Assembly: GCA_964509715.1 (NCBI GenBank)
Contig: CAZDYD010000003.1
Span: 1,436-65,435 of the forward strand
Length of the DNA: 64,000 nucleotides
Source: an uncultured Chitinophagales bacterium
Lineage (GTDB): Bacteria; Bacteroidota; Rhodothermia; Balneolales; HLUCCA01
Direction of reading: 5' to 3'
Positions 24,453-36,856 of this stretch are shown in pieces (the first letter of the stretch is position 1; each line of letters opens with the position of its first letter). The notes under the pieces are model-generated. The model worked only from the letters and a program-made list of their open reading frames with translations. It was not told the origin of the DNA and searched no databases. A program made the translations under genes and the position numbers.

Positions 24453-25466
24453 ATGAACTTGAACGGCAAATCAATACTTATAACGGGTGGAACAGGATCC
24501 CTTGGACGTGCTTTTATAAAAAAAGTACTTACAACCTGGCCGGATGTCGAAAGACTGGTCATCTTTTCCAGAGATGAACAAAAACAATTTGAAATGGCAC
24601 AGGAGTATCCGCACACACGATATCCAATGATCCGTTTTTTTATCGGAGATGTGCGTGATTATGCCAGATTGGTACGAGCTTTGAGTGGTATTGATTATGT
24701 GATCCATGCTGCTGCCATGAAACATGTGCCGATAGCCGAGTACAATCCTGATGAGTGTGTCAAAACGAATATCAATGGAGCCGAGAACCTGATCCGTGCT
24801 TGTCTTGAGACGAATGTGGAGAAAGTAGTTGCACTCTCAACCGACAAAGCTGCAGCACCAATCAATTTGTATGGCGCTACAAAATTAGTATCCGACAAAC
24901 TCTTCATTGCAGCTAATAACATTAAAGGTGATCGAAAAATTACGTTTTCAGTTGTTCGGTATGGAAATGTGATGGGATCGAATGGATCAGTGATACCATT
25001 CTTTCTAAAAAAACGCAAGGAAGGTGTCCTGCCTATCACTCATCCAGAAATGACACGTTTCAACATTACACTTGAAGGTGGAGTTAACATGGTGCTTCAT
25101 GCTCTTGAAACGGCTTGGGGTGGCGAACTATTTGTACCCAAACTTCCTTCATACAGAATATTGGACGTTGCCGAAGCTATTGGCCCTGAATGCGATAAAC
25201 CGGTCATAGGTATTCGTCCAGGAGAAAAAATTCATGAGGAGATGATCACAACATCAGATTCATTCTATACATATGATTTGGGTAGCTATTATGCCATCCT
25301 GCCATCGGTTCATAAATGGAAGATTGAAGATTTTGTAGATCATTTTAAAGCGGTAAAAGTGCCACGCGGATTTCAGTACAATTCTGGTGAAAATACAGAT
25401 TGGGTTAGCGTTGATGAGTTAAGAAAATTAGTAAAAGAACATGTTGACCCCTATTTTACAGTGTAG
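24453..25466 (+). CDS. pseB: UDP-N-acetylglucosamine 4,6-dehydratase (inverting), PseB/FlaA1
   Basis: Nearly collinear with my memory of H. pylori FlaA1: KSILITGGTGSLG, FFIGDVRD, IHAAAMKHVPIAEYNP, STDKAAAPINLYGATK, FSVVRYGNVMGS, IGIRPGEKIHE. Confidence 0.93.
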   Translation: MNLNGKSILITGGTGSLGRAFIKKVLTTWPDVERLVIFSRDEQKQFEMAQEYPHTRYPMIRFFIGDVRDYARLVRALSGIDYVIHAAAMKHVPIAEYNPDECVKTNINGAENLIRACLETNVEKVVALSTDKAAAPINLYGATKLVSDKLFIAANNIKGDRKITFSVVRYGNVMGSNGSVIPFFLKKRKEGVLPITHPEMTRFNITLEGGVNMVLHALETAWGGELFVPKLPSYRILDVAEAIGPECDKPVIGIRPGEKIHEEMITTSDSFYTYDLGSYYAILPSVHKWKIEDFVDHFKAVKVPRGFQYNSGENTDWVSVDELRKLVKEHVDPYFTV

Positions 25467-25513
25467 ATATGTATTCGATGTCCTAAAACCAATCATTGCC
25501 ACTGATCGATTCG

Positions 25514-26530
25514 ATGCCCCCGTTAAAGTATTCGAGAGATAATGTATTATTCATTCAGGGTCCAGAAAAAACTGGTACATCGTCCCTGAATGGGATGCTT
25601 AATGCACACCCACAGATTATGAATCTGTTTGAAGTGTACATGGCTCAATCGTCAATAACTAAGTATGGTCACCAGTTATTGGACAAATATCCATCAGGAA
25701 GGATGTACTTTCGTGAGGATGATGATTACGGAGCGCCATATATAGATTTTTTCAACCACTTTTCGACTTTGGAACCAGATTTCAGTTACACATTCATTGG
25801 TACCAAGATCAATAGTATGGTAGCCGGACTCACAACCAGGAAGTATCCATATAAAACTATTTATACAATTCGTGATGTACGATCCTGGGCTATAAAGCAA
25901 AGCGTGATCAAACATTATCGTACCGAATTGGATATTGTGATTCCAATCATGGCGTATCTGCGGTTTGTTGTAGAAAGTTATAAATACCCCGACATCCTAA
26001 AAATTTGGATGGAAGATATGGTTTTGAACAATAATCATACGTTTGACCGAATCGGAGATTATCTCGAATTGGATTTCAGCAGCTACAAATCTGGATGGTG
26101 GGAAATGTTTGGCGCACATAGCGAGACGGATCCCAAAAGTACCTTTCGATTGTCACACATCCACCATTCTTCCCAGATCAAACCAGAGCGTTTAGATACA
26201 TCCTACAAACTTGCGGACCACCCGTTCTGGAATGAAGTGAGTGAAATATTTGATAAATATTATCTGAAAAATGACGAGGGTGCACTTTCAGATGCGATTA
26301 TGGCCCAAGATCTTCAGAGGATTGAACGGCTTCATACATATGCCCCGCTAACAATCGAAGATGCATATATTGGAATCAAAACCGAACGGTTTGGTGACCT
26401 CAAGTCCGAAAAAATCGAGTTCGATAAGTCCAACACGATACTTCCAGAAAATGAATCCCTGATGGCCAGAATCATTCGAAGATTACATCGGATCAATCAG
26501 GCGGCCAGAGGTAAAACCATACTTGATTGA
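25514..26530 (+). CDS. Putative PAPS-dependent sulfotransferase
   Basis: 5'-PSB-like loop PEKTGTSSL (nt 25562-25588) and a 3'-PB-like motif IRDVRSWAIKQS (nt 25871-25903) about 100 aa downstream, which is the canonical spacing. No other recognisable family motif. ATG at 25514 is preferred over TTG at 25496. Confidence 0.6.
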   Translation: MPPLKYSRDNVLFIQGPEKTGTSSLNGMLNAHPQIMNLFEVYMAQSSITKYGHQLLDKYPSGRMYFREDDDYGAPYIDFFNHFSTLEPDFSYTFIGTKINSMVAGLTTRKYPYKTIYTIRDVRSWAIKQSVIKHYRTELDIVIPIMAYLRFVVESYKYPDILKIWMEDMVLNNNHTFDRIGDYLELDFSSYKSGWWEMFGAHSETDPKSTFRLSHIHHSSQIKPERLDTSYKLADHPFWNEVSEIFDKYYLKNDEGALSDAIMAQDLQRIERLHTYAPLTIEDAYIGIKTERFGDLKSEKIEFDKSNTILPENESLMARIIRRLHRINQAARGKTILD

Positions 26531-35061: not shown

Positions 35062-35107
35062 TAATCAGATTTAATAATTAAAACAGACAGAAATCAGCAA
35101 AGTATTA

Positions 35108-36856
35108 ATGAAAAAACAAGCTTACTTAGGGATATTTGGTCCGGGACCTAACTCATCAGCAGCAATTGTCGGTAATAATGAAATTCTGGCATGGGCTGAA
35201 GAGGAACGATTCAACAGAATCAAGACGGCTCCGAATGCCTATCCTGCACGTGCAATGGAATTTTGTATCAAAGAAGCTCGCAAACAGGGTTTTGAAGTTT
35301 CGGGTATCGGGTATGCATGGGATTGTGATACCTATGCTGAACTGGCTACTGCAAATCTTGAAGAGACTATAGCCAAGTATCCAAGTGAAACTGATGACAT
35401 TAGCCGATTGGTACAACAGGGACTCAATTCTTTGTACAATCCGGTCAAAATAAGACAGGATCTTGGGTTGATTCTGAGGAAATTGGGTGTTGAACTCACG
35501 GATTCTAATTTTAAGTTTTATTCACATCACCTTAGCCATGTTGCATCTGCCATTTACACTTCTGGTTTTGATGAAGCTGTTGTTATTGTAAATGATGGTG
35601 TTGGCGAAGTAGCTGCATCCAGCCTGGTCTATGTTCACAAAGATGGAACCATGGAGGAGTTGGCTACGGAGGTCCTGCCAAATACACTTGGTGGATTCTA
35701 TGCGTCAGTCACGGAATTTCTGGGTTTCAAGGCATATGTGGATGAAGGCAAAACCATGGGATTGGCTGCATATGGTGCACCGGATGCTAAAATTATGTCT
35801 GTATTCGACGAAATGGTTAAAACTGATGGAGAATCCTTTCATTATGAGGTAGACCCAAGGTTCAGATATAGTGGGAAAAGAACTTTTGGCAGCCGGTTTA
35901 CAGATCTGATGGTCGAGAAACTCGGTGCTCCGCGTTCTGCAGATGTCACAGCGATGACGGCGCCCTACCCGGCTATTGCTTATGCTGCACAAAAGAAACT
36001 TGAAGAGGTGTTGTATGCTCAGATGCGCTATGCCGCTTCATTGAACCTGTCAAAAAATATATGCTTCGCCGGTGGGGTCCATATGAACTGTAAGGCGAAT
36101 GGCTTAATGGCTGAATCAGATTTGTTTGAGAATTATTTCTTTCAACCGGCAGCCAGTGATAATGGTGTCTGCCTGGGTGCAGCCTTCCTTGCCGGGATTG
36201 ATGTAACTGGTGAAATTCCAAAACTTCCTTCTCTTGAGCATCTTTATTATGGACCATCGTTCACTGATGATGAAATTGAAAAAGTACTAAATCAGTGCAA
36301 AATCAAATATGTAAAGAGTAATGATATTGCTAAGGATGTGGCAAAATCCATTGCGGATAATGAAATCGTAGGTTGGTTCCAGGGACGAATGGAAGTAGGT
36401 GCCCGAGCTTTAGGCGGACGATCCATCCTTGCGAATCCATTGAACCCTGATGCCCGAGACCATGTCAACAAACATGTAAAGAATAGAGAGGCTTGGCGCC
36501 CCTTCTGTCCATCTCTCAAAAAAGAAAGCTTTCACGGATACTTCGACACGAATATCGATAAATCACCCTTCATGATCGTGGCAACTCGAATCGAGAAAGA
36601 GTATCTGGATGTATTGCCTTCGTGTATTCATGTGGATGGTACTGTTCGTCCCCAGACTGTGAATAAGGATGTCAATCCGTTATATTGGTCGGTAATGAAC
36701 GAATTTGAGAAGCTCACTGGACAATCGATCATTGTGAATACCTCGTTCAATGTTCAGGGGGAACCGATAGTGATGCGACCAGAAGAAGCCTTAAGGTGTT
36801 TCTTTGGATCAGGTATGGATGTGCTTGCTATGGGGTCGTTTTTGATCCGGAAGTAA
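35108..36856 (+). CDS. NodU/CmcH/TobZ-family carbamoyltransferase (copy 2)
   Basis: GPGPNSSAAIVGNNEILAWAEEERFNRIK, FYSHHLSHVASAIY and NTSFNVQGEPIV; 582 aa. Clearly diverged from copy 1. Confidence 0.9.
   Translation: MKKQAYLGIFGPGPNSSAAIVGNNEILAWAEEERFNRIKTAPNAYPARAMEFCIKEARKQGFEVSGIGYAWDCDTYAELATANLEETIAKYPSETDDISRLVQQGLNSLYNPVKIRQDLGLILRKLGVELTDSNFKFYSHHLSHVASAIYTSGFDEAVVIVNDGVGEVAASSLVYVHKDGTMEELATEVLPNTLGGFYASVTEFLGFKAYVDEGKTMGLAAYGAPDAKIMSVFDEMVKTDGESFHYEVDPRFRYSGKRTFGSRFTDLMVEKLGAPRSADVTAMTAPYPAIAYAAQKKLEEVLYAQMRYAASLNLSKNICFAGGVHMNCKANGLMAESDLFENYFFQPAASDNGVCLGAAFLAGIDVTGEIPKLPSLEHLYYGPSFTDDEIEKVLNQCKIKYVKSNDIAKDVAKSIADNEIVGWFQGRMEVGARALGGRSILANPLNPDARDHVNKHVKNREAWRPFCPSLKKESFHGYFDTNIDKSPFMIVATRIEKEYLDVLPSCIHVDGTVRPQTVNKDVNPLYWSVMNEFEKLTGQSIIVNTSFNVQGEPIVMRPEEALRCFFGSGMDVLAMGSFLIRK

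What the first reader, a model, noticed from the sequence alone, without database searches (positions are those of the whole stretch)
24453..36856. Pseudaminic-acid-type pathway lacking PseH and interleaved with sulfo-, carbamoyl-, deacetyl- and redox enzymes: candidate route to an undescribed decorated nonulosonic acid
pseB, pseC, pseG, pseI and one cytidylyltransferase are recognisable from strong motifs. The canonical GNAT PseH is absent from the whole 64 kb. Six extra enzymes sit inside the same tightly packed gene string (ATGA overlaps, gaps mostly under 50 nt). They are a sulfotransferase between pseB and pseC, an AKR and an SDR after pseC, a carbamoyltransferase between pseG and pseI, and a PIG-L deacetylase plus a second carbamoyltransferase after pseI. 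Interleaving, rather than appending, suggests these enzymes act on nonulosonate intermediates or on the CMP-sugar. Known Pse variants carry N-acyl, amidino or O-acetyl groups. I am not aware of a characterised carbamoylated or sulfated Pse, so the predicted product would be new chemistry.
Basis: partly seen in the sequence, partly recalled or inferred. Interest (0 to 1): 0.8.

Follow-up and report, generated by a model that had tools for sequence, protein, structure and literature searches.

The report
Variant pseudaminic-acid pathway with carbamoyl and sulfate enzymes
This gene string is a real sialic-acid-like (pseudaminic-type) sugar pathway that lacks the usual acetyltransferase and carries two carbamoyltransferases, a deacetylase, redox enzymes and a sulfotransferase, so it probably makes a surface sugar that nobody has yet described.

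Summary
PseB, PseC and PseI score above NCBIfam equivalog cut-offs. PseG is just below its cut-off but aligns to the solved PseG. One CTP_transf_3 cytidylyltransferase, an AKR, an SDR, a PIG-L deacetylase and two intact TobZ/NodU-type carbamoyltransferases (CT1, CT2) sit in one + strand string. The weak "sulfotransferase" has a PAPS-sulfotransferase fold, and CysQ/CysD/CysNC lie at the locus end. No GNAT, formyltransferase or WbqC is present in any ORF of 50 aa or more.

The order is not unique. The same scaffold (PseB-[X]-PseC-AKR-SDR-cytidylyltransferase-PseG-CT1-[acyl slot]-PseI-PIG-L-transferase) recurs in Balneolaceae-like, Wenzhouxiangella and Sedimenticola-like contigs. Sister clusters carry a formyltransferase or GNAT where this lineage carries CT2, and CT2 directly follows PIG-L in eight of nine CT2-bearing contigs.

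Most likely product: a CMP-activated Pse-type nonulosonate, de-N-acetylated, carbamoylated (CT2 probably on nitrogen), redox-tailored at the CMP-sugar level, and possibly sulfated. All chemistry is inferred. The held papers report no natural carbamoylated or sulfated Pse or Leg. Verdict: a new variant of a known kind, of moderate interest.

The parts
24453..25466 (+). PseB, UDP-GlcNAc 4,6-dehydratase (inverting)
   Evidence: TIGR03589 507.5 bits, cut-off 407.75. 77-82% identical in sister clusters.
25514..26530 (+). Divergent PAPS-type sulfotransferase-fold protein (the ORF is open from 25496). It occupies variable slot X between pseB and pseC.
   Evidence: Pfam Sulfotransfer_3 only 25.3 bits, below GA 27. 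AF2 pLDDT 81.5. The Foldseek PDB top 50 are all PAPS sulfotransferases, E down to 7e-8, though TM is only 0.3-0.5. Conserved GPEKTGTS and RDVRSW motifs. The family is rare: 170 clusters among 1.84 billion representatives. Some members reach Sulfotransfer_3 over the full domain. Absent from sister loci, where the slot holds a TylF-type or other methyltransferase.
26535..27818 (+). PseC aminotransferase (ORF open from 26523)
   Evidence: TIGR03588 445 bits, cut-off 423.5.
27805..28635 (+). Aldo/keto reductase, part of the conserved AKR-SDR-cytidylyltransferase module
   Evidence: Pfam Aldo_ket_red 86 bits. Fused to the cytidylyltransferase in L009 and in Vibrio B9-25K2 (PMC7371886).
28638..29423 (+). 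Classical short-chain dehydrogenase/reductase
   Evidence: adh_short_C2 176 bits. 63-64% identical in sister clusters.
29508..30269 (+). CTP_transf_3 cytidylyltransferase, the only candidate CMP-nonulosonate synthetase. Not a PseF equivalog.
   Evidence: Pfam 92 bits. No PseF model hit at E 0.01. PDB 6OEW, E 1e-26. Only 35-39% identical to the sister-cluster enzymes, which are 65-75% identical to each other.
30266..31267 (+). PseG-like UDP-sugar hydrolase
   Evidence: TIGR03590 144.4 bits, cut-off 153.55. Aligns to 3HBM residues 2-256 with the GLGH histidine kept. At 333 aa there is no room for a fused GNAT.
31317..33002 (+). CT1, an ATP/carbamoyl-phosphate-dependent carbamoyltransferase (Kae1-like plus YrdC-like domains). 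A constant member of the scaffold, directly after pseG.
   Evidence: Carbam_trans_N 140 bits and Carbam_trans_C 178 bits. TobZ, GdmN and NovN hits at E 1e-54 to 1e-64. HHxxH and GRMEFGPRAL motifs are invariant. 61-82% identical across scaffold loci.
33131..34189 (+). PseI, pseudaminic acid synthase
   Evidence: TIGR03586 489.5 bits, cut-off 340.25.
34369..35061 (+). PIG-L/LmbE-family de-N-acetylase (ORF open from 34342)
   Evidence: Pfam PIG-L 64 bits. AHPDDE motif present. Present in every scaffold variant.
35108..36856 (+). CT2, a second carbamoyltransferase (32% identical to CT1). It is present where sister clusters carry a formyltransferase or GNAT instead.
   Evidence: Carbam_trans_N 145 bits and Carbam_trans_C 215 bits. 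TobZ E 1e-79. Catalytic motifs kept. Forms a tight clade of 63% identity or more. Directly follows PIG-L in 8 of 9 CT2-bearing contigs.
37038..38492 (+). Probable nonulosonate glycosyltransferase
   Evidence: TIGR04396 274.6 bits, cut-off 125. BFO_1060-family GT 83 bits, below its 200 cut-off. BFO_1060 homologues Tanf_01245 and TFUB4_00887 are genetically shown Pse/Leg-derivative transferases (PMC5420450). A 470-484 aa homologue follows the cluster in L008, L088, L089, L090, L095, L096 and L098.
38492..39775 (+). TagF/TagB-like transferase, seen only in this lineage
   Evidence: Pfam Glyphos_transf 52 bits. Hits only in L001-L006.
53393..54196 (+). CysQ PAP phosphatase (PAPS-cycle support)
   Evidence: TIGR01331 286.7 bits, cut-off 228.8.
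59511..62475 (+). CysD (59511-60407) and a CysN/APS-kinase fusion (60592-62475): PAPS synthesis
   Evidence: CysD TIGR02039 433 bits, cut-off 396.6. GTP_EFTU plus APS_kinase domains.

Best explanation
The string 24453-36856, together with the transferase at 37038, is a functional variant of the CMP-pseudaminic-acid pathway. It makes a tailored 5,7-diamino-nonulosonate that has not been described.

Shown by sequence:
- PseB, PseC, a PseG-like hydrolase and PseI supply the L-series nine-carbon backbone from UDP-GlcNAc.
- The canonical 4-N-acetyltransferase PseH is missing.

Inferred steps:
1. CT2 takes the role that a formyltransferase or GNAT plays in sister clusters. It puts a carbamoyl group on a backbone amine, giving a ureido group in place of an acetamido group.
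2. PIG-L removes the GlcNAc-derived N-acetyl. The freed amine then either stays free, as in Ca. Kuenenia, or is carbamoylated.
3. CT1, a constant scaffold member, adds a further carbamoyl group. Whether it goes on O or N is unresolved.
4. The non-PseF cytidylyltransferase makes the CMP-sugar. AKR and SDR oxidise and re-reduce a hydroxyl at that level, by analogy with ElaABC. This would give an epimer.
5. The lineage-specific sulfotransferase, fed by the CysD/CysNC/CysQ genes of the locus, O-sulfates the nonulosonate or a neighbouring residue.
6. The TIGR04396 transferase installs the sugar in a polysaccharide exported by the Wzm/Wzt ABC system encoded just upstream.
For: - Core enzymes score above or near equivalog cut-offs.
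- There is no GNAT, formyltransferase or WbqC in the window.
- Both carbamoyltransferases are full length and keep their catalytic motifs.
- The scaffold is conserved at 60-88% protein identity, with intact ORFs, in at least six Balneolaceae-type lineages. It also occurs in Wenzhouxiangella and a Sedimenticola-like contig.
- Acyl-slot swapping: L087 has a formyltransferase, L088 a formyltransferase plus WbqC, L089 a GNAT plus WbqC, and L009 a PseG-GNAT fusion plus a formyltransferase. The window, L007, L008, L090/L096, L095, L098 and L093 have CT2 and none of these.
- The closest pair is the two Wenzhouxiangella contigs L009 and L093. CT1 is 79%, PseI 75% and PIG-L 72% identical between them. 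They differ in that L009 has the GNAT domain and the formyltransferase, while L093 has CT2 in the formyltransferase position.
- The PIG-L-then-CT2 adjacency is kept even in a second, different scaffold (L094, L097).
- The cytidylyltransferase is fused to the AKR in L009 and in Vibrio (PMC7371886).
- ElaABC is a precedent for CMP-level oxidation and reduction (PMC13656337).
- Ca. Kuenenia is a precedent for an embedded deacetylase plus formyltransferase. It yields CMP-nonulosonates with one free and one formylated amine (bioRxiv 10.64898/2026.04.20.719630).
- Sulfotransferase fold and a PAPS supply module in the locus.
Against: - There are no chemical data at all.
- Only 64 kb of the genome is visible, so a PseH could be encoded elsewhere.
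- Every solved relative of CT1 and CT2 (TobZ, GdmN, NovN) is an O-carbamoyltransferase.
- CT1-type genes coexist with a PseH-type GNAT in L009 and L038, so CT1 is not simply a PseH replacement.
- In L009 one GNAT, one formyltransferase and CT1 make three acyl donors for two amines. That favours O-carbamoylation by CT1.
- The sulfotransferase is absent from all sister clusters, and other sugars in this large locus could be its target.
- PseG is below its cut-off, and the cytidylyltransferase is not a PseF equivalog.
- The PseI sequence split tracks the WbqC cassette, not CT2, so it says nothing about what CT2 does.
Confidence: 0.55

Rival explanations
1. Both carbamoyltransferases are ordinary O-carbamoyltransferases acting on the C4 or C8 hydroxyls of the nonulosonate. 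The C7 amine stays free or is acetylated by a non-dedicated enzyme. PIG-L leaves a free C5 amine. The product is an O-carbamoylated, partly unsubstituted diamino-nonulosonate, with no ureido group.
For: - All solved homologues are O-carbamoyltransferases.
- CT1-like genes coexist with GNAT-type PseH in L009 and L038.
- Free-amine nonulosonates exist in Ca. Kuenenia, whose cluster has an embedded deacetylase.
- A hexapeptide acetyltransferase lies in the same locus at 20750-21328.
Against: - CT2 appears exactly in those clusters that have lost every N-acyltransferase.
- CT2 is tied to the deacetylase in two different scaffolds.
- Canonical PseG and PseI act on the 4-N-acylated sugar (established knowledge of the pathway).
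- The hexapeptide acetyltransferase sits in its own dehydrogenase/aminotransferase module.
Confidence: 0.25
2. The cluster makes ordinary Pse5Ac7Ac, using a PseH encoded elsewhere in the genome. The carbamoyl, sulfate and deacetylation chemistry is directed at other residues of the polysaccharide.
For: - Only 64 kb of the genome is visible.
- The locus encodes at least two other amino-sugar modules and many glycosyltransferases that could be targets.
- The sulfotransferase is lineage-specific.
Against: - CT1, PIG-L, AKR, SDR and the cytidylyltransferase travel with the Pse genes across lineages, while the flanking polysaccharide genes differ.
- Sister clusters keep their N-acyltransferase inside the cluster, in one defined slot.
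- In Ca. Kuenenia, embedded deacetylase and formyltransferase genes are proposed to account for modifications that are already present on the CMP-nonulosonate.
Confidence: 0.12
3. The cluster is a decaying or non-functional remnant whose missing PseH blocks the pathway.
For: PseH is absent, PseG is below its cut-off, and the cytidylyltransferase is divergent.
Against: - All eleven ORFs are intact and tightly packed.
- The same PseH-less gene set is kept, with full-length ORFs, in at least six lineages that have diverged to 60-88% protein identity.
- Identical copies occur on contigs from several independent samples.
Confidence: 0.03

Closest known systems
Canonical CMP-Pse5Ac7Ac pathway (PseB, PseC, PseH, PseG, PseI, PseF of Campylobacter jejuni and Helicobacter pylori)
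   Same: PseB, PseC and PseI reach equivalog scores. A PseG-like hydrolase with the catalytic histidine is present. The start from UDP-GlcNAc and the CMP activation step are implied.
   Different: - No PseH GNAT anywhere in 64 kb.
- The cytidylyltransferase is not a PseF equivalog.
- Six further enzymes are embedded in the cluster.
ElaABC of Acinetobacter baumannii KL49 (CMP-Leg5,7Ac2 synthesis and C8 epimerisation; PMC13656337)
   Same: A nonulosonate cytidylyltransferase is encoded with two NAD(P)-dependent oxidoreductases, one of them an SDR. In ElaABC the proposed logic is oxidation then face-selective reduction on the CMP-sugar.
   Different: - The oxidase partner here is an AKR, not a Gfo/Idh/MocA enzyme. 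L087 has both.
- The backbone is Pse-type, not Leg-type.
- No sequence-level orthology was shown.
- The position that would be epimerised is unknown.
Ca. Kuenenia stuttgartiensis Leg-type cluster with embedded deacetylase and formyltransferase (bioRxiv 10.64898/2026.04.20.719630)
   Same: A deacetylase and a non-acetyl N-acyl donor enzyme are interleaved with nonulosonate genes. Modifications are already present on the CMP-sugar. The product has one free and one formylated amine. Sister clusters L087 and L088 have the same deacetylase plus formyltransferase pairing.
   Different: The window has carbamoyltransferases instead of a formyltransferase, a Pse-type backbone, and an extra sulfotransferase.
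TobZ / NovN / GdmN / NodU family of ATP- and carbamoyl-phosphate-dependent carbamoyltransferases
   Same: CT1 and CT2 have both the Kae1-like and YrdC-like domains, with the metal-binding and carbamoyl-adenylate motifs.
   Different: - Identity is low (hits at E 1e-54 to 1e-79).
- The acceptor would be a nonulosonate or its hexose precursor.
- Characterised members carbamoylate hydroxyls, whereas the genomic pattern here suggests an amine for CT2.
Vibrio sp. B9-25K2 Pse cluster with a cytidylyltransferase-AKR fusion and a dehydrogenase (PMC7371886)
   Same: The same PseC, then cytidylyltransferase/AKR, then dehydrogenase module. The authors note the cytidylyltransferase probably replaces the missing NeuA/PseF homologue and that the product is unknown.
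   Different: The Vibrio cluster keeps a PseH homologue, and no carbamoyltransferase, PIG-L or sulfotransferase is reported for it.
Tannerella forsythia Pse5Am7Gra / Leg-derivative system with transferase Tanf_01245 (BFO_1060 family; PMC5420450)
   Same: A dedicated transferase of a related family lies next to the nonulosonate genes, and the sugar carries non-acetyl N-substituents.
   Different: The window protein is below the BFO_1060 family cut-off (83 vs 200 bits). The substituents differ, and the target here is probably a polysaccharide rather than an S-layer protein O-glycan.

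Membership tests
CMP-pseudaminic acid pathway | PseB inverting UDP-GlcNAc 4,6-dehydratase (TIGR03589 equivalog) | tested here: met
   507.5 bits, cut-off 407.75
CMP-pseudaminic acid pathway | PseC aminotransferase (TIGR03588 equivalog) | tested here: met
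   445 bits, cut-off 423.5
CMP-pseudaminic acid pathway | PseH GNAT 4-N-acetyltransferase | tested here: not met
   No GNAT in Pfam scans of all ORFs of 150 aa or more. No significant hit of a PseH-type GNAT profile in 461 ORFs of 50 aa or more. A copy elsewhere in the genome cannot be excluded.
CMP-pseudaminic acid pathway | PseG UDP-sugar hydrolase (TIGR03590 equivalog) | tested here: inconclusive
   144.4 bits, cut-off 153.55. Aligns to PDB 3HBM at E 2e-13 with the GxGH histidine conserved.
CMP-pseudaminic acid pathway | PseI pseudaminic acid synthase (TIGR03586 equivalog) | tested here: met
   489.5 bits, cut-off 340.25. The NeuB model scores only 290.7 bits.
CMP-pseudaminic acid pathway | PseF-type CMP-Pse synthetase | tested here: not met
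   NCBIfam returned only weak KdsB and spiro-SPASM hits at E 0.01, with no PseF model. Pfam CTP_transf_3 at 92 bits shows a cytidylyltransferase of another subfamily.
TobZ/NodU/CmcH carbamoyltransferases | Carbam_trans_N (Kae1-like) plus Carbam_trans_C (YrdC-like) domains with catalytic motifs | tested here: met
   Both domains are above the gathering score in CT1 and CT2. HHxxH, DG, GRMExGxRAL and NTSFN motifs are present. TobZ hits at E 6e-64 and 1e-79.
TobZ/NodU/CmcH carbamoyltransferases | Carbamoyl transfer to a defined acceptor atom (O in characterised members) | not testable with these tools
   Acceptor and regiochemistry need enzyme assays or glycan analysis.
PAPS-dependent sulfotransferases | Sulfotransferase fold with 5'-PSB and 3'-PB PAPS-binding motifs | tested here: inconclusive
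   Pfam is below the gathering score (25.3 vs 27). The AF2 model matches only sulfotransferases (89 hits at E 0.001 or better), but TM is only 0.3-0.5. Conserved GPEKTGTS and RDVRSW motifs. Some family members pass Sulfotransfer_3.
PIG-L/LmbE de-N-acetylases | PIG-L domain with the AHPDD metal-binding motif | tested here: met
   Pfam 64.3 bits, cut-off 28.2. VVAHPDDELLG motif present.
ElaABC-type CMP-nonulosonate epimerisation module | Gfo/Idh/MocA oxidase, SDR reductase and cytidylyltransferase acting on the CMP-sugar | tested here: not met
   The window has an AKR, an SDR and a cytidylyltransferase, with no Gfo/Idh/MocA enzyme in the string. The resemblance is functional only. Support comes from the cytidylyltransferase-AKR fusion in L009.

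The most novel reading that the evidence does not exclude
The window and its relatives encode the first pathway to a ureido-nonulosonate. In this pseudaminic-type sugar, one or both N-acetyl groups are replaced by N-carbamoyl groups. CT2, and perhaps CT1, would act as functional substitutes for PseH and for re-acylation after PIG-L. This lineage would also add an O-sulfate. Carbamoyltransferase-bearing nonulosonate clusters also occur in SAR11, Thaumarchaeota and Methanosarcinales contigs, so carbamoylated sialic-acid-like sugars could be common on marine and saline microbial surfaces.
Probability: 0.3. Interest if true: 0.75.

Novelty: new variant of a known kind. Interest (0 to 1): 0.55.

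Why it matters
Nonulosonic acids cap bacterial and archaeal surface glycans. They affect charge, phage recognition and immune recognition. Their known N-substituents are acyl, amidino and formyl groups or a free amine. I found no report of a natural carbamoyl or sulfate derivative in the held literature.

If correct, the finding would matter in four ways:
- It adds a new substituent class to this sugar family.
- It gives a new acceptor type, possibly a nitrogen, to the TobZ/NodU enzyme family.
- It gives a genetic marker (PIG-L followed by CT2, with no PseH) for finding such sugars in uncultured marine and hypersaline microbes.
- It offers a natural set of slot-swap variants (formyl, acetyl, carbamoyl) that makes the substrate rules of PseG and PseI directly testable.

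Tried and rejected
- **PseH hidden or fused: rejected.** PseG is 333 aa and aligns to PseG only. No GNAT, formyltransferase or WbqC signal appears in any ORF of 50 aa or more.
- **Hexapeptide acetyltransferase at 20750 as a PseH substitute: considered unlikely.** It sits between a DegT aminotransferase and a Gfo-type oxidoreductase, in a separate amino-sugar module. It is also below the NeuD-family cut-off (83.7 vs 160.8 bits).
- **PseI co-variation as evidence for what CT2 does: withdrawn.** PseI does split into two groups (75-88% identity within, 46-50% between). But the split follows the WbqC cassette, and the two Wenzhouxiangella PseI proteins are 75% identical whether or not CT2 is present.
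- **Metagenome scan for more CT1 relatives.** It returned only three loci.
- **Sequence search of the sulfotransferase-like ORF against the PDB.** It gave nothing significant. Only the fold search was informative.
- **Promoter and terminator scan.** There was no enrichment over shuffled sequence, and it does not cover Bacteroidota-type promoters.
- **Literature searches.** Carbamoyl, carbamoyltransferase or PIG-L combined with pseudaminic, legionaminic or nonulosonic found no natural carbamoylated nonulosonate.
- **Organism name by exact look-up.** None was returned. The Balneolaceae assignment rests on the titles of the nearest MAG records.

Full report
**What is there**

The window is one long + strand polysaccharide locus, running from about 13.2 kb to about 57 kb at roughly 43% GC. 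The organism is Bacteroidota-like: there is a T9SS sorting domain, a TonB receptor and a NusG/UpxY-type regulator. The nearest named relatives of its proteins are Balneolaceae MAGs. Identical copies of the region occur on contigs from several independent public samples.

The finding spans eleven ORFs.
- PseB scores 507.5 bits against a 407.75 cut-off, PseC 445 against 423.5, and PseI 489.5 against 340.25. All three pass NCBIfam equivalog cut-offs.
- The PseG-like ORF is just under its cut-off (144.4 vs 153.55). It aligns over about 260 residues to the C. jejuni PseG structure and keeps the GxGH histidine.
- The cytidylyltransferase is a clear CTP_transf_3 protein (92 bits), but it hits no PseF model.
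- AKR, SDR, PIG-L and the two carbamoyltransferases all exceed Pfam gathering scores.

**The carbamoyltransferases**

CT1 and CT2 are 32% identical to each other. Both are full length and keep the HHxxH, DG, GRMExGxRAL and NTSFN motifs. Both match TobZ, GdmN and NovN at E 1e-54 to 1e-79.

**The sulfotransferase**

This was the weakest call, since Pfam gave 25.3 bits against a gathering score of 27, and only over the N-terminus. Four later results support it.
- A ten-sequence alignment shows conserved GPEKTGTS and RDVRSW motifs. These are the positions of the PAPS 5'-phosphosulfate and 3'-phosphate loops.
- An AlphaFold model (pLDDT 81.5) matches only PAPS sulfotransferases among its top 50 PDB hits, with 89 hits at E 0.001 or better. 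TM-scores are modest, at 0.3-0.5.
- The family is rare, with 170 clusters among 1.84 billion representatives. Some members reach Sulfotransfer_3 across the whole domain.
- The 3' end of the locus encodes CysQ, a sulfate-permease-like transporter, CysD and a CysN/APS-kinase fusion. This is a PAPS supply module.

**PseH absence**

No GNAT turns up in Pfam scans of every ORF of 150 aa or more. No intergenic gap inside the locus is large enough for a missed gene. A PseH-type GNAT profile, three formyltransferases and WbqC find nothing significant among all 461 stop-to-stop ORFs of 50 aa or more. The packing claim is slightly generous: there is one ATGA overlap, and seven of ten junctions are under 50 nt, with gaps of 84, 128 and 179 nt among the rest.

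**Comparative anatomy**

Searching with CT1 and CT2 recovered a recurrent scaffold:

PseB - [slot X] - PseC - AKR - SDR - cytidylyltransferase - [PhyH] - PseG - CT1 - [acyl slot] - PseI - PIG-L - [CT2] - a 470-484 aa TIGR04396 transferase

Proteins in these loci are 60-88% identical to those of the window, and the ORFs are intact. The slots vary as follows.
- **Slot X** is empty, or holds a TylF-type O-methyltransferase (L089). Only in the window's lineage does it hold the sulfotransferase.
- **The acyl slot** holds a formyltransferase (L087), a formyltransferase plus WbqC (L088), or a GNAT plus WbqC (L089).
- **The CT2 variants** have an empty acyl slot, and CT2 follows PIG-L. These are the window, L007, L008, L090/L096 (the same organism), L095 and L098.

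The closest pair for comparison is the two Wenzhouxiangella contigs. CT1 is 79%, PseI 75% and PIG-L 72% identical between them. L009 has a PseG-GNAT fusion plus a formyltransferase just before PseI. L093 has a plain PseG, with CT2 in the formyltransferase position.

CT2 forms a tight clade of 63% identity or more. It directly follows PIG-L in eight of nine CT2-bearing contigs. Two of these, L094 and L097, belong to a different scaffold that has a class-III aminotransferase and no CT1.

More distant CT1 relatives sit in nonulosonate clusters of SAR11, Thaumarchaeota, Methanosarcinales and candidate phyla. The nearest Pseudomonas and actinomycete relatives (48-49% identity) show no Pse-type genes nearby.

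**How it most likely works**

The backbone steps follow from established knowledge of the Pse pathway, together with the equivalog scores. The tailoring steps are inference.

1. *N-acyl remodelling.* Ca. Kuenenia gives a chemical precedent. A Leg-type cluster with an embedded deacetylase and formyltransferase yields CMP-nonulosonates with one free and one formylated amine. The modifications are present at the nucleotide-sugar level. Sister clusters L087 and L088 have this same pairing, plus CT1. In the window lineage the only enzyme standing where the N-acyl donor stands is CT2. I therefore favour CT2 as an N-carbamoyltransferase. CT1 is constant and sits in the position PseH has in canonical pseF-pseG-pseH-pseI operons (gene order recalled from established knowledge of C. 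jejuni). However, it coexists with GNATs in L009 and L038. Its acceptor, O or the PIG-L-freed N, is open.

2. *Redox module.* The cytidylyltransferase is fused to the AKR in L009 and in Vibrio B9-25K2. It is fused or adjacent to a class-III aminotransferase in archaeal and SAR11 loci. L087 adds a Gfo-type oxidoreductase. ElaABC shows that a cytidylyltransferase with two oxidoreductases can epimerise C8 on the CMP-sugar. By analogy, AKR and SDR probably invert or otherwise rework a hydroxyl of the CMP-nonulosonate. In B. subtilis, genetics supports a cytidylyltransferase outside the NeuA/PseF type (SpsF) in nonulosonate activation. The window enzyme itself was not compared with SpsF.

3. *Sulfation.* This is plausible and locally supplied with PAPS. 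The target is unknown.

4. *Transfer.* The TIGR04396 protein (274.6 bits, cut-off 125) is related to the BFO_1060 family. Members of that family are genetically proven Pse/Leg-derivative transferases.

**Limits**

Nothing here is chemical evidence.
- A PseH elsewhere in the genome cannot be excluded.
- All solved relatives of CT1 and CT2 carbamoylate oxygen.
- L009 has three acyl donors for two amines.
- An apparent co-variation of PseI with the acyl slot tracks WbqC rather than CT2, so I do not use it.

**Novelty and score**

The module of cytidylyltransferase, AKR and dehydrogenase has been noted before as uncharacterised (PMC7371886). Embedded deacetylases now have a precedent. What remains new is the carbamoyltransferase pair, the systematic loss of PseH wherever CT2 is present, and the sulfotransferase insertion. 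The held literature contains no natural carbamoylated Pse or Leg. I rate this a new variant of a known kind, with interest 0.55. It is a concrete, testable lead to new glycan chemistry across several environmental lineages, but it rests entirely on genomic inference.

Noticed in passing
window 53393-62475: A PAPS supply module sits at the 3' end of the polysaccharide locus. It comprises CysQ (286.7 bits, cut-off 228.8), a CitMHS/Na-sulfate-symporter-like transporter with TrkA-C domains, CysD (433 bits) and a CysN/APS-kinase fusion. A TauE/SafE exporter lies at 12281-13129.
   Followed up: partly
window 46099-51979: An acetamidino-sugar module: HisH-like (46099), AglZ/HisF2-family acetamidino modification protein (345 bits, cut-off 310), WbuX N-acetyl sugar amidotransferase (300.6 bits, cut-off 203.2), then a UDP-GlcNAc 3-dehydrogenase-like Gfo enzyme and a DegT aminotransferase. 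The same polymer therefore probably also carries a 3-acetamidino amino sugar.
   Followed up: partly
window 18540-22305: A second amino-sugar module lies upstream: an SDR epimerase/dehydratase, a DegT aminotransferase, a hexapeptide N-acetyltransferase and a Gfo-type oxidoreductase. It resembles the route to 2,3-diacetamido sugars (a resemblance from memory, not tested).
   Followed up: no
window 13236-24428 and 43763-45175: The locus mixes export systems. It has a Wza-like Poly_export/SLBB protein (901 aa), a chain-length-determinant-like protein, a Wzm/Wzt-type ABC permease and ATPase directly before pseB, and a Wzy_C/O-antigen-ligase-like protein downstream.
   Followed up: no
window 29433-30269 versus L007, L088-L090: The window's cytidylyltransferase is only 35-39% identical to those of the sister clusters, which are 65-75% identical to each other. 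The window also lacks the PhyH-family dioxygenase that follows the cytidylyltransferase in L007, L088, L089, L090, L095, L096 and L098. This lineage seems to have replaced that part of the cluster.
   Followed up: partly
L009 1223-2860; L038 5585-7759: There are gene fusions of the nonulosonate cytidylyltransferase: with an AKR in a Wenzhouxiangella MAG, and with a class-III aminotransferase in a Methanosarcinales MAG. In SAR11 (L031), L094 and L097 the aminotransferase lies directly next to the cytidylyltransferase. The aminotransferase link hints at amination of a keto-CMP-sugar.
   Followed up: no
L094 14719-16626: A group II intron reverse transcriptase (RVT_1 plus GIIM) is inserted next to the NeuB-family gene of a CT2-bearing nonulosonate cluster.
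   Followed up: no
window 38492-40889: A TagF-like transferase and a protein with weak Kdo-kinase/APH-like kinase motifs follow the putative nonulosonate transferase, only in this lineage. The pair could phosphorylate the glycan or link it through phosphate.
   Followed up: no
L093 13571-14278; L097 21227-21758: Other sulfotransferase families (Sulfotransfer_4, and a weak Sulfotransfer_3 hit) occur a few genes downstream of CT2-bearing nonulosonate clusters in a Wenzhouxiangella contig (L093) and an unassigned metagenome contig (L097). Sulfation may be a recurring theme in such loci.
   Followed up: no
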